Virus record (IMG/VR): IMGVR_UViG_3300034993_000256
Span: 1 to 52,833 of that record
DNA from: a virus
Lineage: Duplodnaviria > Caudoviricetes
DNA: 52,833 nucleotides
Direction: 5' to 3' (one strand)
Below are positions 32,401 through 45,953 of the stretch, piece after piece. The first letter of the stretch is position 1, and every line of letters begins with the position of its first letter. Position numbers and translations under genes: made by a program. The notes under the pieces are model-generated. The model saw only the letters and a program-made list of their open reading frames with translations. It was not told the DNA's origin and searched no databases.

Positions 32401-33242
32401 CAGAACGGCTCCTCGTCGCCCGCCGAGTACGGGACGGGCGCGGGAGCCGGCGCCGGCGCAGGAACGGGAGCCTGCGGGACCGGAGGCTGCGGCACTTCCT
32501 GGACAGGAGCGGGGGGTGCTACCGGCGCTGGCGGCGGGATCTGTGCGACCGGGGCCGGCGGGGCGACCGGGGCCTGTGGCGCGATCGCGGCCGGAGGCGG
32601 TACGACGGTTGGCGTCTGCGACGGGACCGGAGTTGGTGCGCCGGCGGGTACTTGCATGGGCTGCCCGGTTCCGGAGTCGATGACCCAGACCATTGCGGCG
32701 GGTGCGGGGGCTGGTGCGACGACTGGCGCCTGGGGAACCAGAACGGGTGCGACAGGCGGTGCGACCTGCGGTACGGGCGCTGCCTGCGGAATGCCAGCGC
32801 CGGGACCAAATCCTGCCGTGGCGGCGACACCGATTTGCCCGCCGGTAATTGGACTGTAAGCCTGAACTTCGTTGCGATCACTGCCCTTGAACGGCTTGAT
32901 GCCCACGCTGACAGCGACTTGTCGGCCCATGAGAGCGGCGGCGACCTGCTCCAACGGCGGATTCGAGGCGAAGTACGTGCGGTCGAGCCCGAAGGCGGCC
33001 ATGTGTTCGAAGAAGAAAGACAGGGCGTTCGGGTTACCGGCCGTGATCACGTACTGATCGAAGAGGAGTCGGCCGTCGTGCGGTCCACCGACGATCCTGA
33101 GTTGCACCTTGATCATCGGCTTGCTCGTAGACGATGTGGTCGCCTCGGCCTTCGAGACCTGGACGTTGTACGGTCCCGACGGGACCGGCTGGAATCCTTC
33201 GCCAGCCTCCTTCATGAGGGCACCGAAATCAATCGTAGTCAA
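32400..33242 (-). CDS. DUF669-like ssDNA-binding protein with long Pro-rich tail
   Basis: P.GPY.V, KPMIKV, G.HDGR motifs; acidic C-terminus DEEPF; downstream of the Sak4-like ATPase. Confidence 0.75.
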   Translation of the reverse strand: MTTIDFGALMKEAGEGFQPVPSGPYNVQVSKAEATTSSTSKPMIKVQLRIVGGPHDGRLLFDQYVITAGNPNALSFFFEHMAAFGLDRTYFASNPPLEQVAAALMGRQVAVSVGIKPFKGSDRNEVQAYSPITGGQIGVAATAGFGPGAGIPQAAPVPQVAPPVAPVLVPQAPVVAPAPAPAAMVWVIDSGTGQPMQVPAGAPTPVPSQTPTVVPPPAAIAPQAPVAPPAPVAQIPPPAPVAPPAPVQEVPQPPVPQAPVPAPAPAPAPVPYSAGDEEPF

Positions 33243-33649
33243 CTGGAATCACTCCTTTGTGGTAGTTGCGCAAGATGTGCCTTTCGGCACGCCCACCCAG
33301 CGCGCATTGCGGCGCGGCGCTCTTCTGAGTATACGCGACCGCGCTGTGCGGCAGCAATCTTGTCACGGGTTTCCTGTGATACCGGATGCCCCTTCAGACT
33401 TGCGCTCGTCTTCTGCTGAGATTTAGCAGTACTCGGCCGAGCGCGATCATATCGATGACGTAGCGCATGACACGATCGGCAAAGAAGAGCAAGATTTTCG
33501 ATGACATCATTCTGATGATCCTGATCGATATGGTGAATCTGTCCCTGGCCCGATCGTCGTCCAAGTTCAATGAGAATGATATCGCAATCTTCACACGACC
33601 ATGGTCCAGTACCGTGAATTCTGAAGTACACGCGGTGAGACTTAGGCAC
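33239..33649 (-). CDS. HNH endonuclease with NUMOD3 motifs
   Basis: CEDC, IHHIDQDHQND..ENL.LLC.SCH, ETRDKIAAAQRG; start GTG 33649 or ATG 33676. Confidence 0.8.
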   Translation of the reverse strand: MPKSHRVYFRIHGTGPWSCEDCDIILIELGRRSGQGQIHHIDQDHQNDVIENLALLCRSCHALRHRYDRARPSTAKSQQKTSASLKGHPVSQETRDKIAAAQRGRVYSEERRAAMRAGWACRKAHLAQLPQRSDSS

Positions 33650-34433
33650 TTTGAATCTCTTGTGCAGGCGCGGCATAGTGCGGATAGATGAGTTCGAGCA
33701 TGCGGTAGATGTCAGGGTTGTCGACGACCGGTCCGACAAGACCTTGAACTCGCTCGCCGGCTTCGAAGAGAGGAGTCTGGTTGACGAGCAATTTGCGGAC
33801 GATCTGCGTGAGTTGTCCGTTTGCATCCGGTGCCTGGTCGACGTAGAGGTACCCGACGACGTCCATCCAGTATGGCAGGCTGGTGCTGATCTGTCCCTGC
33901 ATATATGGGCGAAACTTGCCGTCAATCTGTCGAGTCTCGGCGACGAACATGGCAACTCTGATCGGATTGTACGGGTCGATCGTGAGGTCACGGAATCCGC
34001 GGATGACGGTGTCCATGACCGTGAGAAGTTGACCCCAATCCTGGATCATCATCGCCTCCGTGCCCTTCAGATTCGCCTTGGCACGGCGTTGGATCTCAGT
34101 GATGGAGTCGACGACGACGGACGTAAAGTAGTGATTGCCCTGCGCTAACCACTGCCATGCATACTGGACATCTTGCCAACTACGGACTGTGACAACGGCG
34201 GCATCCCACGTTCCATCTGGGATCGGCGGTGACTGTGATGGTTCCCAAGGGATGATCGTGAATGGACGGCCACCTAGTCTGTCCCTGAGGTACGTGCTGC
34301 CGGGGAGAAACTTGGTGCCACCTTCGGCGTCCAGAATGCAGATTGGCGCGGGACATGTTGCCCCCAGTGTCGATTTCCCAACCTTGGACTCAGCATGGAC
34401 GAGGATGCTTAGCGTCCTCAGATCGACCGTCAT
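33642..34433 (-). CDS. Sak4-like (AAA_24) ATPase/recombinase
   Basis: Walker A AESKVGKST, DAEGG, VVDSITE, DWG, DVVGYL. Confidence 0.85.
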   Translation of the reverse strand: MTVDLRTLSILVHAESKVGKSTLGATCPAPICILDAEGGTKFLPGSTYLRDRLGGRPFTIIPWEPSQSPPIPDGTWDAAVVTVRSWQDVQYAWQWLAQGNHYFTSVVVDSITEIQRRAKANLKGTEAMMIQDWGQLLTVMDTVIRGFRDLTIDPYNPIRVAMFVAETRQIDGKFRPYMQGQISTSLPYWMDVVGYLYVDQAPDANGQLTQIVRKLLVNQTPLFEAGERVQGLVGPVVDNPDIYRMLELIYPHYAAPAQEIQSA

Positions 34434-34825
34434 GCGATTCCTTTCTTACGCGCCCAATAGGCATGAGTTGCGTCGGATAGTTTCTGCTTGTGCTCGTCTG
34501 TGAGTCTGACTCCGCGCTTGATCTCACTCATCTTGCGCCGATACTCATCTGTGACTGGCGGTCGTTTCTTACCTGTCTTGGCCGCCGAGATTTTGGCTCG
34601 TGTCTCGGTTGATCGAGGAACGCCTGCGAAATGCAGACGACTATGGCACCCTTTGTGCATTGCGGTCAAGTTCGTTGGTTCGTTGTTCTCGTGATTCTCA
34701 TCAAGGTGATGGATGGCGAGTTCGTCTGGTAGGACGAGATCCTCACAGGCGTTGAGGTAGCACGGCCACGGCCCAGGACCGTTCACAGCGATGAAGATGG
34801 GACGGTACTTCCAACCATCACTCAT
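34430..34825 (-). CDS. HNH endonuclease with NUMOD3 motifs
   Basis: IHHLDENHENNEPTNL...CH..LH; ETRAKISAAKTG, EYRRKMSE, EHKQKLS. Confidence 0.85.
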   Translation of the reverse strand: MSDGWKYRPIFIAVNGPGPWPCYLNACEDLVLPDELAIHHLDENHENNEPTNLTAMHKGCHSRLHFAGVPRSTETRAKISAAKTGKKRPPVTDEYRRKMSEIKRGVRLTDEHKQKLSDATHAYWARKKGIA

Positions 34826-35762: not shown

Positions 35763-36151
35763 ATCCCGGTGTCCCACCGCTTGTCCGGGTGCCACTGTCG
35801 CTGAATCTCGCTGGCAATGCGGGTAATCGCCGACAGCTTCTCGTCGGCGTCCGCCTGGGGTCGCAGCGTGTTGCGGAAGGTAAAGCGGAGGGCGGCCTCG
35901 ACCAACTGCTCTGTCAGTTGGTCGGGGGGCTTGTTCGCTTTCTCTTGCAGTCTTGTGACCTCTTGGAGGACGCTGTCGGCGGTGTACTCCCCGAGGTGAC
36001 CGGAGAGATCGAAACACTCGCCGACCGCGTCCCAGTGTTTCAGCACCTCGAGCGCCTCTGTCTTCCAGCGCCGCAGTCGGTTGATCTCCCTGGTCATCGC
36101 GTCGTACTGCTCAAGTGGGGCGAAGGCTGGGTAGTCGTCGCGAGCGCTCAT
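35759..36151 (-). CDS. hypothetical helical protein
   Basis: ATGA overlaps at both ends. Confidence 0.7.
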   Translation of the reverse strand: MSARDDYPAFAPLEQYDAMTREINRLRRWKTEALEVLKHWDAVGECFDLSGHLGEYTADSVLQEVTRLQEKANKPPDQLTEQLVEAALRFTFRNTLRPQADADEKLSAITRIASEIQRQWHPDKRWDTGI

Positions 36152-36915
36152 GACGGGAACTTCACTCTGTGCTTCTCGATTTCGTTGAGGAAGCGTTGAC
36201 CACGTTCCGGGTCGCTGTCTGGCATCCCCTTGGTGTGGAGTTCGTTCCAGACGTCCTCCAGCGAGTAGCGGGTACGGATCCGTGGGTGCGCCGGCGGCGG
36301 GGTCGAGAATGGATCCCAGCCCCCAGAGATCAGCAAAGCGATCATTGTCTCGTACGCCGCTTCCCAGGGGAGGGTCTCACAGCGCTCCTTCTTCTCCGTG
36401 AAGCGCTCGCGGATCTGCCGGACTCGCTTCCACTGGTGATCGACGGTCGCTTCCTCGTTGATGCCCTTCCCCGTCGGCCCTTTCCCGTCGTTACGGGACA
36501 GGATACGCTCGCGACAGACCTCGAGCGGCGTATCGAGGAAGGCGAACGTGATGCTGTTCTGCACGCCCAACGTCACGTCGAGGCGCTTACGAAGTTCGTG
36601 ATAGCGACCGATCGCGAGGCTCGCCATCATCGACTCGAAGATGACGTGCGGGTAGATGGCGCAGTTCCGTTCGAGCCAGAGTGTGACCAACTCGGTCTTG
36701 CCGGGCATCAACATGTCCATGCCGCCGGTCTTCGCCGTTGGCGCGTACGGACCGACGATGAATAGGCCGCCGGCGAGGAGGTGTCCGACTTGCCGAGGCT
36801 TGACCTTATTCCAGCCGACCTTCTCCCAGACCTCGACTGAGGGGTAATCCTGCAGGAGGCGGTAGAGGCTAGTTGACTTACCGCTGCACGACGAGCCGCG
36901 GATGTTGAGGATCAT
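36148..36915 (-). CDS. P-loop kinase of DNA hypermodification clusters (putative hydroxymethyl-pyrimidine DNA kinase)
   Basis: ILNIRGSSCSGKST, VGPY...GGMD, IFES and FLDTPLEVCRERI..R; near the ADDT-like gene. Confidence 0.75.
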   Translation of the reverse strand: MILNIRGSSCSGKSTSLYRLLQDYPSVEVWEKVGWNKVKPRQVGHLLAGGLFIVGPYAPTAKTGGMDMLMPGKTELVTLWLERNCAIYPHVIFESMMASLAIGRYHELRKRLDVTLGVQNSITFAFLDTPLEVCRERILSRNDGKGPTGKGINEEATVDHQWKRVRQIRERFTEKKERCETLPWEAAYETMIALLISGGWDPFSTPPPAHPRIRTRYSLEDVWNELHTKGMPDSDPERGQRFLNEIEKHRVKFPS

Positions 36916-37118
36916 CAGCCCTCCCGCCAGCTCTTGCGCACCCATTCAGACACCGTGCCCTCACTAACTTTAAATCCGCTTTCACGAAGTTCTCTGGCGA
37001 TTACGGTATACGTCAAACCGTCGTTCTTGTGCCGTCGTTTGATGAACTTGACGACGTCCTCATCCAGCCAATCACTGAGTTCGGCCTTCAAGCTGCGCAT
37101 CGGTCGGTGTTCAATCAT
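36915..37118 (-). CDS. small HTH DNA-binding protein
   Basis: GLTYTVIAREL...VSEGTVSEW; GGAGG RBS, coupled on both sides. Confidence 0.75.
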   Translation of the reverse strand: MIEHRPMRSLKAELSDWLDEDVVKFIKRRHKNDGLTYTVIARELRESGFKVSEGTVSEWVRKSWREG

Positions 37119-37531
37119 ATTCGAGCCTCCAGACTCTCTAGCCACTCGTAGTGGACTGTGTTGACAAGGGCATTTGGCCGGCGAGCACGCACTATGTAGG
37201 CGGCACTCGCGCCGTCGATCCGGTACCGCTCCATCAGGACGAGAGCAGCGATTAGACACGATCGGTTGCGGCCGGCGAGACAGTTGATGACGACGCGGTG
37301 GCCGTGATCCAACATCGCCAGCGCGTAGTCGCGGGCCCGGACGTAATCATCGACCTGAAGACCTTTGCCGTCAGTCACGGGGACGTGCTGCCACCACATG
37401 AGTTTGCGTCGTACATCGGCGGGCGGTAACTTGGTGCAGACCGTGAGGCAGGCCGTCCACTGATAGACCTCGACCTGTTTGACGGTCGGTGTGCCGCACA
37501 CCTCAAGATTCGTATCGATGTGCCAGGGCAC
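37115..37531 (-). CDS. dual-specificity (CX5R) phosphatase
   Basis: Catalytic loop NCLAGRNRS, upstream PVTD acid loop, downstream VRARRP. Confidence 0.88.
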   Translation of the reverse strand: MPWHIDTNLEVCGTPTVKQVEVYQWTACLTVCTKLPPADVRRKLMWWQHVPVTDGKGLQVDDYVRARDYALAMLDHGHRVVINCLAGRNRSCLIAALVLMERYRIDGASAAYIVRARRPNALVNTVHYEWLESLEARI

Positions 37532-38450
37532 GCTTCACCTTCTCTTTCTGCGCCGCTTCGAGATCCGGACGTGCTCCCCACCATTTCATATCGCCGTACT
37601 CGCCGAGATACTCAGGCGGAAACAACTCAAGGCGCAGACGGTAGAACGGAACAACCTGTCGGAGGTCGACGATGCCTCGTTCGTTGAAGTACCCGTTCGC
37701 CTTCCGCCAGTGCGCGAGCTCGCGGTCGTGACTGCGGCCCGGATATTTGCCGTCGAGACTCTGTCGTGCGTTGCAGAGGAGAGTCTCGAGCTGGAACCAG
37801 GTCACGTCCTGCTCAGTCCAAGCCGACGCCGCGAGCGCGAGTTGATTCAACCAGGCCAAAGTCTCTGGTCGATTGTCCTTCGAGTTGATCAGGTCGTCGT
37901 ATTCAGGGAACATCAGGGCGAGCATCTTCCGCGGGTACTTCGCTCCCTTCGCGACGATCGATGACTGCGGTGCGACCTGAAGACCGGCCTGGTGCATCGT
38001 CTCGATGACCTTCATCGTTGCGTACCGGCCGAAGTATTTCGCCCGCTTGCCGATACTCATGTACAACTCATCGTACGTCATTGCATGGACCTCATCGGAT
38101 GACGTGGTGTAGCACCAATCGATCCACGAGACGACGGACTCCATCAGTTTCCGCCGGTCATCACCCCAGACCGACCGCCGCTCACGTCGCATCGGGAACC
38201 CGTCTTTGTGTTCGATGAGGAAGGACGCCCAATCCGTGATGCCGGTCTGACGGAGGTGCCAAAGGACAGCTCCCGAACCGACCGTGTACGGCACGACGAA
38301 CAAGCCGCAGAAGACGGCCTGCTCCGCCGGAATGAGACCCTGCTCCCGGACAGCGCGACCGACAAGCGTCACCTGCGGGTCCGGGCCACCGCTCGCGAGC
38401 TCGGCCCGGCAGAAGTCCACGAAGAGTTCGCGGTAGACATCAGCGCTCAC
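37503..38450 (-). CDS. amino acid:DNA transferase-like protein (ADDT / aGPT-Pplase2, HhH-glycosylase fold)
   Basis: GPDP, RRERR, YFGRY...IE, LETLLC and YPG motifs recalled from this family; GTG 38450 with GAGGTG RBS. Confidence 0.7.
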   Translation of the reverse strand: MSADVYRELFVDFCRAELASGGPDPQVTLVGRAVREQGLIPAEQAVFCGLFVVPYTVGSGAVLWHLRQTGITDWASFLIEHKDGFPMRRERRSVWGDDRRKLMESVVSWIDWCYTTSSDEVHAMTYDELYMSIGKRAKYFGRYATMKVIETMHQAGLQVAPQSSIVAKGAKYPRKMLALMFPEYDDLINSKDNRPETLAWLNQLALAASAWTEQDVTWFQLETLLCNARQSLDGKYPGRSHDRELAHWRKANGYFNERGIVDLRQVVPFYRLRLELFPPEYLGEYGDMKWWGARPDLEAAQKEKVKRALAHRYES

Positions 38451-39009
38451 GTAGCACCTCACGTAAGAGCGTGTCGATGTGTTCGTGGATGTCGACATAC
38501 TCGAACTTGATGCCGAGCATCGCTGCTCTCTTCGCGTCGCTGAAGCTGTCGCCGACGAACCAATCCGGCTGACACCGTTTGAGATTCTCGATCTTCGTTC
38601 CCATGTCGATGCCGTGACAGTGGATGAGTGACTCGAGCTGCACGAGGTGCTCTCGCAACCAAGTACGAATGATCGGTGTCGTGGTGGACGAGATGATGTG
38701 CACGCCGATATGCGCGGCGATCAGTTGGTGAATTGCAGCGATCGTCTCTTTCTTCGGCTTGGACCGGATCGTCACGTCGAACTTCTCAGCGGCGTATGCA
38801 GCGACGGCGAGACTGACTTCACGACCGGTCGAGCACATGATCCGCGGTAACTGCACATCGAACGGGTCGCCTGATGTTTCTCGGTATCGTTGCCGGATCA
38901 CATTCTCATCGGCGACATCCCAGTACCGACCGATGACGTCCACGGCGAGGTCTTCCAACCCGCCCATACTGTCGCAGATCGTGCCGTCGAAGTCGAATGC
39001 GACGATCAT
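38440..39009 (-). CDS. HAD-family phosphatase
   Basis: Motif I FDFDGT, II ISS, III K, IV GDSFSD. Confidence 0.88.
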   Translation of the reverse strand: MIVAFDFDGTICDSMGGLEDLAVDVIGRYWDVADENVIRQRYRETSGDPFDVQLPRIMCSTGREVSLAVAAYAAEKFDVTIRSKPKKETIAAIHQLIAAHIGVHIISSTTTPIIRTWLREHLVQLESLIHCHGIDMGTKIENLKRCQPDWFVGDSFSDAKRAAMLGIKFEYVDIHEHIDTLLREVLRER

Positions 39010-39419
39010 GATCTAACCCGACGACAGGTGCAGATTGGATCAAAGTCAGGTAGTGGACAAGCGCGTGGACATCCATTCTCATGAAGACTGTGCCCTTGTC
39101 GGACTGCAAATGGCGGACCGTTGTATCCTTCATGCACACCGCCATCAGGAGCACGCAAGCACGTTGAGTTATCGACGATGAGAGCACCACAACGAATGCA
39201 CCACGGCAGCGTGATGTGACGACGATCATCCAATGCTTCGATGGCACTCATCAACAGCGCGTCCGCGATCGGATCAACCATCTCATCATTACTGATCTGC
39301 ATGTCGCCAGTCAGCATGACCTTTCGCAACTCATGACGAAAGTAGCCGAGTGTCGTCTGCGGAATCGCCCGAAGCGGGTGATCGGCGATGCTCGCGTAGT
39401 CAACTGCGTTCGGCATCAT
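39006..39419 (-). CDS. hypothetical Cys-rich protein
   Basis: Coupled at both ends; CIRC, CPRAC, CTC. Confidence 0.65.
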   Translation of the reverse strand: MMPNAVDYASIADHPLRAIPQTTLGYFRHELRKVMLTGDMQISNDEMVDPIADALLMSAIEALDDRRHITLPWCIRCGALIVDNSTCLRAPDGGVHEGYNGPPFAVRQGHSLHENGCPRACPLPDFDPICTCRRVRS

Positions 39420-41498: not shown

Positions 41499-41959
41499 AT
41501 TAGAGATTGTATCAACTCTTCGCGTACCTGTCCAGTACCGTGCGTGACTATTCCAAGAACAAGGTGCCGGATGGCGTCGCGGGCGTGGTCCTTACCGGGC
41601 TGCCAAAGGCCGATCTTCCGCAGCTGAGCGTCGGAGCAGAACCGTTTAGCAGCTGCCGGTGTCTGCATTACGGGACACGATCTCGCACGGCGGAGGAGGA
41701 ACTTCATGGTGCCGATCACTTCCATGGCAATGGGCTGCTGACTCATGCGTACGGTTTGGGCGGTGATCGTGAACGTTTCAATGAGCACCAAGCACGATGA
41801 GTCAAGGAATTGCGGTGTGTCAGCGAACCAATTGAGAAACTCATAATCGGTACATTGTCCGGCAGCGACAGAATTAGCCGACCAATGCCCACCCAACATC
41901 ATATGCGCCCATCCGGTCATGTCGCCAGGGTCCACGGCGAGTGCGTAGCGGAAGGTCAT
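41495..41959 (-). CDS. RuvC-like Holliday junction resolvase
   Basis: LAVDPG.MTGWA, IETF, EVIG, HARDA..H. Confidence 0.8.
   Translation of the reverse strand: MTFRYALAVDPGDMTGWAHMMLGGHWSANSVAAGQCTDYEFLNWFADTPQFLDSSCLVLIETFTITAQTVRMSQQPIAMEVIGTMKFLLRRARSCPVMQTPAAAKRFCSDAQLRKIGLWQPGKDHARDAIRHLVLGIVTHGTGQVREELIQSLI
41506..41535 (-). promoter_or_regulatory. promoter P5, CTGGACA-N17-TACAAT, inside the 3' end of the RuvC-like gene
   Basis: -35 at 41529-34 and -10 at 41506-11, with extended TG. Confidence 0.8.
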
Positions 41960-42243: not shown

Positions 42244-44021
42244 AGCGCATAGTCTTCCTTGGAACCCCAGGACTGACCAACGGACGGTGCAACCGTGATG
42301 GGGACGCTGATCAGATTGGCATCGGCCATGATGTTGCAGGCCGAGTCAGCAAGTTCGCGCAACTGATCCGTTGGGACATCGAAGATGATCTCATCGTGAA
42401 CTGGGAGGACGAGGTACGGACCGAAGCCGGCGTGATCGAGTTCGACCAATTTCATCTTCAGCAACTCTGCGGCGGCTCCCTGCACCAACTTGTTAACGAG
42501 CGTGTACACACGGTCGTGATCCATCGGGTGAATCTGGCCGGTGAGTGGTGAACGAGCATAGGCGACACCTTCCTCTTGCCGGCGCTGATTCGCTCGGTTC
42601 TCGATGTGCCGGTTGAGACCTTTCATCAGCGGGTAGCGAGCCGCGATCATGTCGTACATCTGCTGTCCGTACTCAGCTGCGAGACCAGCCGTCTTCGCGA
42701 ACTTCGCGGCGCCAGCGCCGTAGCCAATTGCGTACATGGCATTCTTCGTATGTTGCCTGCGCTCGTCCTTCCGAGTGAGTGTCGGCTCAGCCCACAACTC
42801 GCGCATGATGGCCGTGAACACATCGACGTCTGGGTCGGTGAAGGCCGCGATCAGCCCGAGATCTTGCGACACATGGGCGAGGAATCGCAACTCGACCTGG
42901 TCGTAGTCGACCATCAATAGCGTATTGCCGGGCGATGCGATCAGTGCCTTACGAACTGTGATCGCAGCCGGGTTGTCTTCTGAGGACCGCGGCAGGTTCT
43001 GGAGGTTCGGTGCACTCATCGTCATACGAGTCGTCACCGCGCCGCACGATTTGATGCTTGGGTGTAGCCGAGGGTCTTCGTCTGTCGTCTCTTCGACGAA
43101 ATGACGGAGATACGTCGACGCGAGCTTGGAATACCGACGATGTTCGAGTACCGCGTTTGCGAGTGGGTGCAGGTGAGCGATGGGACCGAGCACGAATTTG
43201 TCGAGTTGAACGGCGCCAGAGGCGGTTGTCTTGTCGAGTGGTATCCCATCAGCGATCAACCGTTGAGCAACCGATGCATTCGCACTCGGTCGGACGCCGT
43301 AGTGCTCACTGCACCAATCGCTGACTGACTTGGCGTATGAGCGGAAAGATACAAGCGCCTCACTGGCGAATGGACGGTCAACCATGATGCCATTGCGCTC
43401 CATCTTCTCCACGACCCAGGCAGCTGCCAGCTCGAGTTCGTACGCTCGTGTCGCACCCATTTCCCGGACTTTCGGCATGAGGATGGCGGCAAGCCGAGTA
43501 GTGAGGACGACGTCCATCGCTGCGTACGTCCAATACGGCTCGTAATCGACGGGGACTGTTGCCCAAGTCCATCCTGTCGTACTCTTCCACTGATCTTGGA
43601 GAGCGAGTGCCATTGGGTCCACATACCGGCCAGCGAGTTGCTTCAATCCGCCGGACATGTTCGGCTCGATGGCGTGCGCCATCAGCATTGTGTCATCACA
43701 GCGATCCTGCGGCATCTGATAGTCACAGGTGGCACGGATCATCCCGACATCGAACTTCATGTTGTGCAGGACCATGCGACCGTCGTAACGGTCCATCGCT
43801 TCCAAGAACACGCCGCCCCACCGCTGCCATGGGATCGCCCAACCATGCACTTCGTCGCCGATCTGCACAAGCCGGACTTTGTCGTGTTCGATACGCAGGC
43901 CCTCCGTTTCAGTGTCGACGGCGATCCCGCCTTCACGTCGCTCTCCGAGCCAGCGCATCATCTCATTCGCTGTCTCGAGGTCATCGACTAGGTGCAACTT
44001 GACGTCGGCGAGTGAACTCAC
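42240..44021 (-). CDS. polA: DNA polymerase, family A, with 3'-5' exonuclease
   Basis: Exo DTET, HNMKFD, YAAMD; polymerase motif A DYDQVELR, B RQHTKNAMYAIGYG, C VHDE. Confidence 0.95.
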   Translation of the reverse strand: MSSLADVKLHLVDDLETANEMMRWLGERREGGIAVDTETEGLRIEHDKVRLVQIGDEVHGWAIPWQRWGGVFLEAMDRYDGRMVLHNMKFDVGMIRATCDYQMPQDRCDDTMLMAHAIEPNMSGGLKQLAGRYVDPMALALQDQWKSTTGWTWATVPVDYEPYWTYAAMDVVLTTRLAAILMPKVREMGATRAYELELAAAWVVEKMERNGIMVDRPFASEALVSFRSYAKSVSDWCSEHYGVRPSANASVAQRLIADGIPLDKTTASGAVQLDKFVLGPIAHLHPLANAVLEHRRYSKLASTYLRHFVEETTDEDPRLHPSIKSCGAVTTRMTMSAPNLQNLPRSSEDNPAAITVRKALIASPGNTLLMVDYDQVELRFLAHVSQDLGLIAAFTDPDVDVFTAIMRELWAEPTLTRKDERRQHTKNAMYAIGYGAGAAKFAKTAGLAAEYGQQMYDMIAARYPLMKGLNRHIENRANQRRQEEGVAYARSPLTGQIHPMDHDRVYTLVNKLVQGAAAELLKMKLVELDHAGFGPYLVLPVHDEIIFDVPTDQLRELADSACNIMADANLISVPITVAPSVGQSWGSKEDYAL

Positions 44022-44482
44022 AGAACCTCCACCCCGATACCGAGTGAGCGCAGGAATCGATAATTCTCGTCCGCCTTTCGGTATTCCCGGCCGGCATCAG
44101 TCTTCACGATGACCATAGCGAGTCCGCTGTTCGCGATGAGCTTCGCGCAGTTGAAACAGAGGTCGCCAAGGACGTAGATGGTGCCGCCCTGCCAAGCCGA
44201 GCGATCGGCTGCCATTAAAGCATTCGCCTCGGCGTGAAGGGCGTAACAGTCGTCGTACAAGGGACTGAGTCCATCTCCCAATTTCACCGCTCTCGGGCAC
44301 CAATTGACACACGACTCATCGCGGTGATCGAAGTGCGCAGGGGGGTTGTTGTACCCTGTCGCGATGACACGATTACGTGAGTCCGTGATGACGGCGCCGA
44401 CGTGCGCTCGCGAGCAGAGGCTTCGTTCAGCGATCACCGTCGCGGCCTCGAGCCAGACTTCATCCCAGGTTGGACGGGTCAT
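44018..44482 (-). CDS. dCMP deaminase
   Basis: C....VGAVI, TGYN, HAEANAL, C..CAKLI.NSG. Confidence 0.9.
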   Translation of the reverse strand: MTRPTWDEVWLEAATVIAERSLCSRAHVGAVITDSRNRVIATGYNNPPAHFDHRDESCVNWCPRAVKLGDGLSPLYDDCYALHAEANALMAADRSAWQGGTIYVLGDLCFNCAKLIANSGLAMVIVKTDAGREYRKADENYRFLRSLGIGVEVL

Positions 44483-45360
44483 GAGATCGCCTCCACCTGC
44501 TTCCACGCCGCCCCCAAGCGGGTGTGGTACCATTGGTGCGACGGCGGCTCGTCTCCGATGTTACGGCCTTCGAGGATGTCGTACGCCGTAGTCAACAGTG
44601 ACCGACCAGACATCATCCCGCCTTGCGCCGGATGAAGACCGTCAGGCAGCGGGTTAGTCGACTTCCACCCTTCATCGAAGGTGAGGGACCGGGCCCGTTC
44701 GAGATCTTTCTTGTAGAGGTGCATCGAGATGGAGTGGTGACAGTATTCGCCGATCTCACGCCCGAGGAAGTTGGCGACCGTACGTTGGAGCTGACGGAAT
44801 TGGAACACGTCGAACGGCATACCGAGCCACACATCGCTCGATCGCATGACAACACTGAGAAGGAGCAACTCATCCCGGATGCGGAATGTTAGCGCAATGG
44901 TGCACGGGATGTCCTTCGGCATCGGATCACGCCACTCACTGTCTTCGTTCTTGTCCCAAATCTGGATCACGGCCTGCCGACTGCTCGGGTCCATCTTCAA
45001 CTTGTTGACAACATCCATGATCTGGTTGTCGATGCGCCCACCGTAGTTCCCGTGGACGGTACCGTCGGCTTCCCGGACGTAATCAGCCACCCCCGCTGCG
45101 ACGGCCTCAGTGAGGCGTGGTAATTCAATACCGGCACAGAGTTGAATGGCTTCGGCTGCGGCGAGGTTTGTATTGATCTTGCGTCCGACGCCGAGCGGAA
45201 GGTCGAGCGCTTCAGGAGCGAGCGTGAATACGAAGTCGTCAGTCTCATATGCCATACCAGCCCGGCTCTTAATAACGGTGTCGTAGTGCCGATCGACTCG
45301 TCGGACGAGGGACATGTACCCTTTTCGCCAATCGTCGTAATAGTCGTTCATGTAGGCCAT
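44479..45360 (-). CDS. thymidylate synthase superfamily enzyme, Asp-type (dCMP hydroxymethylase/methylase-like)
   Basis: SRQAV..IW, DIPCT, MRSSDVWLGMPFDVF, SMHLY. Confidence 0.88.
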   Translation of the reverse strand: MAYMNDYYDDWRKGYMSLVRRVDRHYDTVIKSRAGMAYETDDFVFTLAPEALDLPLGVGRKINTNLAAAEAIQLCAGIELPRLTEAVAAGVADYVREADGTVHGNYGGRIDNQIMDVVNKLKMDPSSRQAVIQIWDKNEDSEWRDPMPKDIPCTIALTFRIRDELLLLSVVMRSSDVWLGMPFDVFQFRQLQRTVANFLGREIGEYCHHSISMHLYKKDLERARSLTFDEGWKSTNPLPDGLHPAQGGMMSGRSLLTTAYDILEGRNIGDEPPSHQWYHTRLGAAWKQVEAIS

Positions 45361-45953
45361 GGATGTGTCTCCTCGTAGGTTGGGATCGGATTTCTGTACC
45401 CCGCAACCGATGCCTCCATGCGAGCGCTGGCTAGAATGGCTGGCGCAATAGCGCTCGCTTGTGTGAGGTCAGTGTTAACGACCTTCAACTTAGGGCCGGG
45501 TGTCATGAATTGCACATCCAAGAACAGCCCGGCATACGCATTGTTGATCTTAGGCAGGAGGTGCGGGTCGATGAGGTCGTCACCCCGCTCCGCGAGACGC
45601 TTCATGAGGACGGGGCTGGGGGCATGTGCGTGAACATACAACGCACCCCTGTCGCGGAGTAGTCCGTCAAGCCAGCGTGCCTGCGCTAGGCTCAGTTTGC
45701 TTGCACCCCTCAGGATCGGCCCGTACACGAGCTCGCCGAGGTGCCAGCGATCCATCACGACGAGCCAGTCCTGGTTCGGGGTCAATGCGAGGAGATCCTG
45801 AGCGTACTCCTCCCAGGGTCCGTGCTCTGCCGTGAAGGGCCCGCGGTTCCAAACGGCGCTGCCCCCGCGACCTTCTTCTGCGTACACTCGGATGAGTTCG
45901 TCGCGGAGGGTCGACTTGCCGGCGCAGTCCGGACCTTCAAGGAGGATGATCAT
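45348..45953 (-). CDS. dNMP (thymidylate kinase-like) kinase
   Basis: LEGPDCAGKST, DRWHLGELVYG, R...RGD. Confidence 0.88.
   Translation of the reverse strand: MIILLEGPDCAGKSTLRDELIRVYAEEGRGGSAVWNRGPFTAEHGPWEEYAQDLLALTPNQDWLVVMDRWHLGELVYGPILRGASKLSLAQARWLDGLLRDRGALYVHAHAPSPVLMKRLAERGDDLIDPHLLPKINNAYAGLFLDVQFMTPGPKLKVVNTDLTQASAIAPAILASARMEASVAGYRNPIPTYEETHPWPT

What the first reader, a model, noticed from the sequence alone, without database searches (positions are those of the whole stretch)
36148..39009. DNA hypermodification block with an ADDT-like transferase flanked by two unrelated phosphatases
Seen: five overlapping genes in the order HAD phosphatase, ADDT/aGPT-Pplase2-like protein, CX5R phosphatase, HTH, P-loop kinase. 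Established: in 5-hmdU phages (ViI, M6, PhiW-14, SP10) a DNA kinase phosphorylates the hydroxymethyl group and an amino acid:DNA transferase replaces the phosphate with an amino acid or amine; PLP, radical SAM, FAD or acetyltransferase enzymes can tailor it further. None of those tailoring enzymes is visible here. Inference: the two phosphatases make or unmask a different nucleophile (a phosphorylated metabolite dephosphorylated before or after transfer), or edit unreacted phospho-base, giving a base not yet described.
Basis: partly seen in the sequence, partly recalled or inferred. Interest (0 to 1): 0.9.

Follow-up and report, generated by a model that had tools for sequence, protein, structure and literature searches.

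The report
Phage DNA-base transferase paired with phosphatases
An uncultured phage of actinobacteria carries a gene set for chemically decorating a pyrimidine base in its DNA, in which the base-decorating enzyme is always partnered with a small phosphatase, which points to a DNA base that has not yet been described chemically.

Summary
On the minus strand, five translationally coupled genes lie at 36148-39009: HAD phosphatase, amino-acid:DNA-transferase (AADT)-like protein, CX5R dual-specificity phosphatase (DSP), a small HTH-like protein and a 5-hmdU-DNA-kinase homolog.

- **Transferase.** It has the fold of PaMx11 gp46/PUGT (Z 16.6) and the Glu-Thr-x-x-Cys catalytic motif.
- **DSP link.** The DSP follows this AADT subfamily in 46 of 48 distinct viral loci. 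It is fused to the transferase in at least 10 proteins. It is absent from 4 of 4 cultured phages with canonical clusters.
- **Inositol link in relatives.** 8 of 23 distinct loci found through the transferase carry a myo-inositol-1-phosphate synthase directly upstream. Other windows of this scan had noted that wiring before.
- **This window differs.** The window's own clade has no synthase. It lacks an aromatic C-terminal tail and differs at 11 of 32 columns conserved in synthase-linked relatives.

Best reading (0.45): a phosphorylated alcohol is attached to the activated base and then dephosphorylated on DNA by the DSP, while the HAD acts on the free metabolite. The nucleophile here is unidentified, no chemistry exists, and no paper I found reports this pairing. 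Verdict: a new variant of thymidine hypermodification clusters.

The parts
38440..39009 (-). HAD-superfamily phosphatase, 189 aa, subfamily IA with a helical C1 cap
   Evidence: Pfam HAD and HAD_2. Motifs I-IV are invariant in 11 homologs: D6, D8, G9, S107, S108, K139, G153, D154, D158. The model has pLDDT 94. Its best folds are small-molecule sugar-phosphate or phosphoglycolate phosphatases: 3d6j, AlnB 4ex7 and CbbY. The family is acidic, median pI 5.7.
37503..38450 (-). AADT-like (aGPT-Pplase2/PUGT-fold) DNA base transferase, 315 aa from a GTG start; the open frame runs to 38498
   Evidence: PF18724 E 3.7e-5, below the cut-off. 31 of 53 homologs carry a precomputed PF18724 hit. hhalign against M6 gp51 gives E 2e-4 with the E-T-x-x-C motif aligned. 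The model has pLDDT 92.6. The top PDB fold is PaMx11 gp46/PUGT (8z2n/8z2m): Foldseek probability 1.0, VIA Z 16.6, rmsd 3.0 over 239 residues. The next rows are HhH glycosylases at Z 9.5 or less.
37115..37531 (-). Small CX5R dual-specificity-type phosphatase, 138 aa
   Evidence: DSPc 38.3 bits, above the cut-off; PF00782 E 5.4e-11. C84 and R90 are invariant and G87 and R88 are at least 90% conserved in 30 homologs. The PxxDG general-acid Asp is present. The family is basic, median pI 9.1.
36915..37118 (-). Small HTH-like protein, 67 aa from an ATG that overlaps the DSP stop; function unknown
   Evidence: Weak HTH matches only. Homologs were found only in close relatives: L002-L005, L008 and L119.
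36148..36915 (-). P-loop kinase, homolog of 5-hmdU DNA kinases, 255 aa
   Evidence: 29% identity over 196 aa to M6 gp54, E 6e-16. PF18748 E 1.3e-4 (below the cut-off) and phrog_800 E 4e-13. The HMM built from its relatives hits M6 gp54 at 1.8e-31.
44479..45360 (-). Thymidylate-synthase homolog, candidate pyrimidine hydroxymethylase. It has Asp where dUMP-type enzymes have Asn.
   Evidence: Thymidylat_synt E 1.2e-18. In the alignment with M6 gp58 and relatives, PFD here stands against GAN there.
44018..44533 (-). dCMP deaminase
   Evidence: dCMP_cyt_deam_1 E 4.5e-15.
45348..45953 (-). P-loop protein, weakly dTMP-kinase-like; candidate kinase for the modified monophosphate
   Evidence: Thymidylate_kin E 0.0048; TIGR00041 E 5.7e-4. 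Both are weak.
41506..41534 (-). Promoter-like site at the head of the transcription unit that holds the block
   Evidence: TGGACA-N17-TACAAT with TG, 10 of 12 matches. No convincing terminator lies between it and the block.

Best explanation
The block is the DNA-level half of a pyrimidine hypermodification pathway of an uncultured actinophage. All steps below are inferred unless marked as shown.

1. Upstream genes (dCMP deaminase, thymidylate-synthase-like hydroxymethylase, an NMP-kinase-like protein) supply a 5-hydroxymethyl-pyrimidine nucleotide. The phage family-A polymerase builds it into DNA.
2. The P-loop kinase phosphorylates the hydroxymethyl group in DNA, as its homolog M6 gp54 does (inferred from homology).
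3. The AADT-like enzyme attacks C6 with its conserved cysteine, expels the phosphate and lets a nucleophile add to the exocyclic methylene. This is inferred from the PUGT fold and the shared Glu-Thr-x-x-Cys motif.
4. What is special is shown here: this enzyme belongs to a distinct subfamily that is nearly always followed by, or fused to, a small basic CX5R phosphatase.
5. My proposal is that the nucleophile of this subfamily is a phosphorylated alcohol. It would be attached through a hydroxyl and then dephosphorylated on the DNA by the CX5R phosphatase.
6. In many relatives that alcohol would be inositol phosphate, made by a synthase encoded directly upstream. In this window it is host-derived and unidentified.
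7. The C1-capped HAD phosphatase would act on the free phospho-metabolite.
8. The product would be an ether-linked polyol or cyclitol base not described so far.
For: - Fold and motif of the transferase. The roles of Cys and Glu in M6 gp51, ViI gp247 and PUGT come from PMC8989533 section 17 and from passages in sections 14 and 22 of PMC11472151 returned by a term search.
- Kinase homology to M6 gp54.
- A DSP lies directly downstream in 29 of 30 transferase-seeded loci, and in 46 of 48 distinct transferase sequences overall. All 5 further distinct loci from metagenomes and a MAG also have it.
- Fusions with the transferase N-terminal and DSPc C-terminal, the same order as here: P0044, P0047, the L046 ORF, and 8 of 10 further long forms tested.
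- A DSPc plus kinase fusion in L051 fits a pathway enzyme better than an eraser of the kinase's product.
- DSPc is absent from the whole genomes of M6, Cr30, RP13 and Tonitrus, 0 of 4.
- An inositol-phosphate synthase lies directly upstream of the pair in 8 of 23 distinct transferase-seeded loci.
- In the reverse search, 33 of 79 synthase-seeded viral loci carry this transferase subfamily, and 31 of those 33 have the DSP.
- The DSP family is basic and the HAD family acidic with a small-molecule-type cap.
- The family is large: 617 representatives at E <= 1e-3.
Against: - No inositol-phosphate synthase occurs in the window record or in the records of its relatives L003, L006, L008 and L013.
- The window clade forms its own synthase-less branch.
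- It lacks the aromatic C-terminal tail. It differs at 11 of 32 columns that are at least 90% conserved in synthase-linked rows, including a residue two positions after the catalytic Cys. Its nucleophile may therefore differ.
- A syntenic relative (L115) lies in a Coriobacteriia MAG in which no synthase was found. The MAG's completeness is not stated, and binning is weak host evidence.
- Cr30-like clusters join a canonical transferase to the synthase without any DSP. So inositol use does not in itself require the DSP.
- The Pfam scores of the window's transferase and kinase are below the curated cut-offs.
- The thymidylate-synthase homolog has Asp at the position that selects cytosine. The modified base could derive from hydroxymethyl-C rather than hydroxymethyl-U.
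- There are no chemical or expression data.
Confidence: 0.45

Rival explanations
1. The CX5R phosphatase is an eraser or proofreader. It removes the phosphate from 5-phosphomethyl bases that the transferase did not use and restores the hydroxymethyl base. The nucleophile would then be an ordinary non-phosphorylated compound.
For: The DSP tracks the transferase subfamily rather than the inositol synthase. It is present in synthase-less loci, including this window. It is absent from Cr30-like synthase clusters. Its basic pI and its fusion to a DNA-acting enzyme suit a DNA substrate.
Against: Characterised clusters (M6 and the PaMx11 type) leave many sites unmodified yet have no such enzyme. DSPc is absent from M6. 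A DSPc plus kinase fusion (L051) would be a futile cycle. This reading does not explain why a synthase of a phosphorylated polyol sits beside the pair so often.
Confidence: 0.2
2. The phosphatases act before transfer. The HAD and/or the DSP dephosphorylate a free phospho-metabolite (inositol phosphate in relatives) and the transferase uses the free alcohol.
For: Synthase plus phosphatase is the universal two-step route to inositol (recalled). In 6 of 79 synthase-seeded loci the HAD lies between the synthase and the transferase. The HAD has a small-molecule-type C1 cap and its best folds are sugar-phosphate phosphatases.
Against: Most synthase-linked loci have no HAD: 27 of the 33 with this transferase subfamily. 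The recurrent fusion of the DSP to DNA-acting enzymes and its basic charge are not needed for a soluble metabolite phosphatase. This window keeps both phosphatases yet has no synthase.
Confidence: 0.2
3. The HAD is not part of the base chemistry. It is a nucleotide-pool enzyme, for example a 5'-nucleotidase that removes the competing canonical monophosphate.
For: The HAD is present in only 8 of 23 distinct transferase-seeded loci. Phages that replace thymine are known to destroy the competing nucleotide (recalled). The weak PHROG hits are to a polynucleotide kinase/phosphatase family.
Against: When present, the HAD is always the gene directly upstream of the transferase. In L010, L011, L016, L048, L050 and L054 it lies between the inositol synthase and the transferase. 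Its fold neighbours are sugar-phosphate rather than nucleotide phosphatases.
Confidence: 0.15

Closest known systems
Pseudomonas phage PaMx11 gp46 (PUGT) with gp49 5-HMUDK, and M6 gp51 with gp54 (thymidine hypermodification via 5-PmdU)
   Same: Same fold (Z 16.6 to 8z2n), the same Glu-Thr-x-x-Cys motif, a homologous DNA kinase and an upstream thymidylate-synthase-like gene.
   Different: About 15% identity. The Pfam score is below the cut-off. No PLP, radical SAM, FAD or acetyltransferase tailoring gene is present. There is an obligatory CX5R phosphatase partner, which is absent from M6.
Salmonella phage ViI gp247 (serine:DNA transferase; O-seryl ether later decarboxylated)
   Same: A hydroxyl nucleophile forms an ether on the C5 methylene (PMC8989533 section 17). 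That is the chemistry proposed here for a polyol.
   Different: In ViI the nucleophile is a free amino acid and a PLP decarboxylase follows. No phosphatase is involved.
Inositol-synthase-linked transferase plus DSP clusters of uncultured phages
   Same: The same transferase subfamily, the same DSP and kinase order, and the same HAD in some loci. L010 is the nearest such locus, with 44% transferase identity.
   Different: The window clade has no synthase, lacks the aromatic C-terminal tail and differs at 11 of 32 conserved columns.
Caulobacter phage Cr30 gp123/gp121 (cultured)
   Same: A strong ADDT (PF18724, E 1.3e-52) lies two genes from an inositol-1-phosphate synthase. A kinase-like gene annotated 'terminase small subunit' is nearby.
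   Different: The transferase is of the canonical type. No DSPc occurs anywhere in the genome, and a weak TAGT-like glycosyltransferase sits between the two genes. Its DNA chemistry is not reported in the papers I searched.
Attach-then-dephosphorylate pathways: mycothiol MshA/MshA2 and alnumycin AlnA/AlnB (mechanistic analogy, recalled)
   Same: A phosphorylated polyol or sugar is used as the substrate and the phosphate is removed after coupling. AlnB is among the best fold matches of the window's HAD.
   Different: The acceptors are small molecules, not DNA. This is an analogy only.

Membership tests
Amino acid:DNA transferase (aGPT-Pplase2 / PF18724 / PUGT) | Matches the Pfam model above its curated cut-off | tested here: not met
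   24.0 bits against a cut-off of 26.2 for the window protein. 31 of 53 homologs carry a precomputed PF18724 hit. Seven fused relatives score 27.5-41.6 bits.
Amino acid:DNA transferase (aGPT-Pplase2 / PF18724 / PUGT) | PUGT fold | tested here: met
   VIA Z 16.6, rmsd 3.0 over 239 of 288 residues to 8z2n_B. The next unrelated family scores Z 9.5. Foldseek probability 1.0.
Amino acid:DNA transferase (aGPT-Pplase2 / PF18724 / PUGT) | Catalytic Cys with a neighbouring Glu (Glu243, Thr244 and Cys247 in PUGT) | tested here: met
   E238, T239 and C242 of the 331-aa frame. E238 and C242 are invariant in 24 sequences and align with the motif of M6 gp51. In more distant subfamily members the Glu is replaced by Gln and a Glu follows the Cys.
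Amino acid:DNA transferase (aGPT-Pplase2 / PF18724 / PUGT) | Transfers a nucleophile onto 5-phosphomethyl-dU in DNA | not testable with these tools
   Needs an enzyme assay and LC-MS.
5-hmdU DNA kinase (5-HMUDK, PF18748) | Homology to an experimentally verified kinase, with a P-loop | tested here: met
   29% identity over 196 aa to M6 gp54, E 6e-16, with the Walker A region aligned. The Pfam score of 22 bits is below the cut-off of 27.
Dual-specificity / Cys-based phosphatase (PF00782) | Pfam above the cut-off, a CX5R loop and a general-acid Asp | tested here: met
   38.3 bits against a cut-off of 33.5. C84 and R90 are invariant in 30 sequences. The Asp of PxxDG is present here and missing in 4 divergent rows.
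HAD phosphatase, subfamily IA | Motifs I-IV and a C1 cap | tested here: met
   D6, D8, G9, S107, S108, K139, G153, D154 and D158 are invariant. Pfam HAD 27.8 bits against a cut-off of 27. Fold matches to C1-capped phosphatases have TM up to 0.77.
Inositol-linked hypermodification cluster (unpublished class from this scan) | myo-Inositol-1-phosphate synthase encoded beside the transferase | tested here: not met
   No PF01658 match in the window record, and none in the loci of its clade.

The most novel reading that the evidence does not exclude
The small CX5R enzyme is the first phosphatase that works on a base adduct in DNA. The transferase attaches a phosphorylated polyol or other phospho-alcohol from host metabolism to an activated 5-hydroxymethyl-pyrimidine, and the phosphatase trims it on the polymer. 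That would give actinophage DNA a polyol-ether base of a kind never described. Because the thymidylate-synthase homolog carries the cytosine-selecting Asp, the base may even be reached through a hydroxymethyl-cytosine nucleotide.
Probability: 0.3. Interest if true: 0.9.

Novelty: new variant of a known kind. Interest (0 to 1): 0.72.

Why it matters
Known thymidine hypermodifications all start from free amino acids or polyamines. They are then tailored by PLP, radical SAM, flavin or acetyl-transfer enzymes.

Here a large, unreported branch of the transferase family (617 representative clusters) is instead wedded to a Cys-phosphatase. It is often also linked to an inositol-phosphate synthase. 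That implies a different class of nucleophile and a new enzymatic step on DNA.

If this is confirmed it would add:
- a new family of natural DNA bases;
- a new substrate class for CX5R phosphatases;
- new tools for making restriction-resistant or chemically addressable DNA.

This window shows that the pair also works without a phage-encoded synthase. That makes it a useful contrast case for finding out what the phosphatase really does.

Tried and rejected
- **GenBank phages, blastn, megablast and tblastn.** The block, the left arm and the transferase gave no match. A distant subfamily member (L017) hit only canonical aGPT-Pplase2 genes of Rhodococcus phage Tonitrus and Gordonia phage CaiB. So no cultured phage with this subfamily was found.
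- **Transferase profile against PDB sequences.** Only E 0.28, to 25qc_A. The fold search was needed to place it.
- **HAD against PDB sequences.** Nothing at E <= 0.01.
- **Complex prediction of transferase and DSP.** No verdict, score 0.00. This is evidence neither for nor against binding.
- **Metagenome scan for more members of the window's tail-less branch.** It gave only 8 loci, 3 of them already known. No alternative conserved neighbour that could make a nucleophile turned up.
- **L021, the one locus without a DSP.** It has a weak TAGT-like gene, a weak YfbR-like HD gene and a beta-helix protein instead. I could not explain this.
- **Host assignment.** PolA points to actinophages. One relative sits in a Coriobacteriia MAG. 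I did not try to trace samples.
- **Literature.** No paper links a phosphatase or inositol with the transferase family (searches; passages read). Iyer et al. 2013, which defined the aGPT-Pplase clades, is not held and is cited from recall only. Supplements were not opened and may hold gene-neighbourhood figures that bear on this.
- **Rejected reading: the DSP as a host-takeover protein phosphatase.** The fusions and near-universal adjacency to the transferase argue against it.


Full report
**What is there.** The window is a 52.8-kb linear virus record, estimated 73% complete. Virion genes lie on the plus strand and replication genes on the minus strand.

At 36148-39009 on the minus strand lie five genes whose ends overlap by 11, 29, 4 and 1 nt:
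- a HAD phosphatase (38440-39009);
- an AADT-like protein (37503-38450, GTG start);
- a CX5R phosphatase (37115-37531);
- a 67-aa HTH-like protein (36915-37118);
- a P-loop kinase (36148-36915).

Pfam gives HAD E 4.1e-6, ADDT E 3.7e-5 (24.0 bits, cut-off 26.2), DSPc E 1.4e-9 and HMUDK E 1.3e-4 (22 bits, cut-off 27).

A promoter-like site at 41534-41506 heads the unit. No convincing terminator interrupts it.

Upstream in the same direction are a P-loop NMP-kinase-like gene, a thymidylate-synthase homolog, a dCMP deaminase, a family-A polymerase and an SNF2 helicase. PolA is closest to actinophage polymerases, best 39.6% identity.

**The transferase.**
- 53 homologs were found. 31 of them carry a precomputed PF18724 hit.
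- A profile of 24 of them aligns with M6 gp51 over 228 columns (E 2e-4), and the E-T-x-x-C motif is in register.
- An AlphaFold model (pLDDT 92.6) matches PaMx11 gp46/PUGT first. Foldseek gives probability 1.0 and TM 0.51/0.57. VIA-align gives Z 16.6, rmsd 3.0, 239 residues aligned, with HhH glycosylases next at Z 9.5 or less.
- In PUGT, Glu243 and Thr244 hold the metal on O4 and Cys247 is the proposed nucleophile (passages in sections 14 and 22 of PMC11472151, found by a term search).
- Cys and Glu are essential in M6 gp51 and ViI gp247 (PMC8989533 section 17).
- The window protein has E238, T239 and C242. E238 and C242 are invariant in the 24-row alignment.
- I conclude that it is a real but divergent member of the AADT superfamily.

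**The kinase.** It is 29% identical to the verified 5-hmdU DNA kinase M6 gp54 (E 6e-16).

**The phosphatase partner.** I retrieved 30 viral loci through the transferase and searched them with HMMs built from the neighbours.
- A DSP lies directly downstream on the same strand in 29 of the 30. L014 has a partial hit at the contig end. L021 has none.
- Pooled with loci retrieved through the inositol synthase, 46 of 48 distinct transferase sequences have the DSP. One of the two exceptions is a contig that ends 2 nt after the transferase.
- Five further distinct loci from metagenomes and one MAG all show transferase, DSP and kinase in that order.
- Transferase identity falls to 27% with the pair still intact.
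- Natural fusions keep the same order, with the transferase N-terminal and DSPc C-terminal: P0044, P0047 and the L046 ORF.
- Of the 14 long forms (450 aa or more) among the best 150 representatives, I tested 10 beyond P0044 and P0047. Eight of those 10 are such fusions.
- L051 fuses DSPc to a P-loop kinase.
- DSPc is absent from the whole genomes of M6, Cr30, RP13 and Tonitrus, 0 of 4.
- C84 and R90 are invariant in 30 DSPs. The family is basic, median pI 9.1.
- The transferase subfamily is large: 617 representatives at E <= 1e-3 and 210 at E <= 1e-30.

**The HAD.**
- Motifs I-IV are invariant.
- The model (pLDDT 94) matches C1-capped small-molecule phosphatases: 3d6j, the alnumycin phosphatase AlnB, phosphoglycolate phosphatases and CbbY.
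- It occurs in 8 of 23 distinct transferase-seeded loci. When present it is always the gene directly upstream of the transferase.
- From recall, C1-capped HADs usually take small substrates.

**What relatives add.**
- In 8 of 23 distinct transferase-seeded loci, the gene upstream of the (HAD-)transferase-DSP unit is a myo-inositol-1-phosphate synthase. It scores PF01658 E 5.6e-37 and TIGR03450 (mycothiol-type INO1) E 2.2e-164, over its full length.
- In the reverse direction, 458 viral stretches encode such a synthase. I analysed 79 of the 80 best loci (L036-L114), leaving out L020, which the transferase search had already fetched.
- Of those 79, 33 carry this transferase subfamily, and 31 of the 33 also carry the DSP. 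35 have the kinase and 48 a thymidylate-synthase homolog.
- 4 carry a canonical Cr30-type transferase instead. 21 have an FkbM-type methyltransferase and 2 a radical SAM/SPASM enzyme.
- The cultured phage Cr30 has a strong ADDT (E 1.3e-52) two genes from its synthase.
- Other windows of this scan had already noted synthase-linked hypermodification operons. I reached the same wiring independently, before I looked those notes up. They are unchecked AI notes, not support.
- No paper I could search reports the link.

**What speaks against simply filing this window under the inositol reading.**
- Neither the window record nor the records of L003, L006, L008 and L013 hold a synthase.
- In the tree, the window, L002, L003, L006 and L008 form a supported synthase-less clade (100/97). 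The synthase-bearing L009/L010 pair is only a weakly supported sister.
- That clade lacks the aromatic C-terminal tail that all 12 other displayed rows have.
- Of the 32 columns that are at least 90% conserved in the 32 synthase-linked rows, it keeps only 21. The changes include Trp to Val/Glu/His, Tyr to Phe, Trp to Phe, and Tyr to Ala two residues after the catalytic Cys.
- A syntenic relative, L115, has PolA 61%, SNF2 71% and kinase 76% identical. Its order is HAD, transferase, DSP, kinase. It lies in a Coriobacteriia MAG in which no synthase was found.
- The synthase set is also biased, because half of the loci were retrieved through the synthase.

**Mechanism.** The DSP follows the transferase subfamily rather than the synthase. 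It is fused to DNA-acting enzymes and is basic. The HAD is acidic and capped for small substrates.

The reading that fits most observations has three parts. This subfamily uses a phosphorylated alcohol as nucleophile. The DSP trims the phosphate on DNA. The HAD, where present, handles the free metabolite.

Each step is an inference. The eraser model and the pre-transfer model remain open (see the rivals).

The identity of the pyrimidine is also open. The thymidylate-synthase homolog of the window, L003, L010 and L011 has Asp where M6 gp58 and more distant relatives have Asn. That is the position that selects dCMP over dUMP in this enzyme family (recalled). The scan's note e1-6349753 had raised this point.

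**Verdict.** This is a new variant of the known thymidine hypermodification clusters. Its defining new feature is the transferase-phosphatase pair. The product is unknown, and the decisive work is chemical.

Noticed in passing
window 44479-45360 (-): The thymidylate-synthase homolog has Asp (motif PFD) where M6 gp58 and distant relatives have Asn (GAN). L003, L010 and L011 share the Asp. Together with the adjacent dCMP deaminase, this suggests entry through a cytosine nucleotide.
   Followed up: partly
L034 (Caulobacter phage Cr30) 4732-10599: A cultured phage with gp123, a strong ADDT (E 1.3e-52), gp122, weakly TAGT-like, and gp121, an inositol-1-phosphate synthase. gp114 is annotated 'terminase small subunit' but hits my 5-HMUDK-type HMM (2.3e-4). 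It is a tractable system for testing an inositol-linked base.
   Followed up: partly
L035 (Ralstonia phage RP13) 2918-8275: ORF120 is a strong HMUDK_hel (PF18723, E 3e-47). It lies five genes from an inositol-1-phosphate synthase (ORF125).
   Followed up: no
L033 (Stenotrophomonas phage Mendera) 6098-11624: Here the inositol-1-phosphate synthase sits among GTP cyclohydrolase, QueC-like and QueE-like genes (7-deazaguanine pathway). No transferase of the kind studied here is nearby.
   Followed up: no
L088-L113 (viral contigs): A second recurrent architecture: a thymidylate-synthase homolog, an inositol-1-phosphate synthase and an FkbM-type methyltransferase, without the transferase, DSP or kinase in the 8-kb flanks.
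   Followed up: no
L032 (phage M6) 16686-17249; window 36148-36915: The verified 5-hmdU DNA kinase M6 gp54 is annotated 'terminase small subunit'. phrog_800, which the window's kinase matches (E 4e-13), carries the same name. This looks like a propagated misannotation.
   Followed up: partly
L124 (Rhodococcus phage Tonitrus) 1-4642: A cultured actinophage with a ParB-like nuclease, a TET/JBP-like protein, an aGPT-Pplase2 domain protein and a kinase at its left end. This is a dioxygenase-type thymidine hypermodification cluster. No DSPc occurs in the genome.
   Followed up: partly
L051 10895-11959; P0157; P0164: Other fusions in the family: DSPc plus Ploopntkinase3 (L051), NUMOD3 plus an ADDT-like domain (P0157, 524 aa), and a 761-aa protein with two ADDT-like stretches (P0164).
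   Followed up: partly
L021 7141-10034: This is the only complete locus without a DSP. After the transferase it has a weak TAGT-like gene, a weak YfbR-like HD-domain gene and a beta-helix protein.
   Followed up: partly
window 39006-39419 (-): A 137-aa Cys-rich ORF lies between the SNF2 helicase and the HAD. It has no family match and no homolog in the related loci.
   Followed up: partly
window 33239-33991 and 34430-34825 (-): Two HNH/NUMOD3 homing-endonuclease-like genes are inserted in the replication module just downstream of the block.
   Followed up: no
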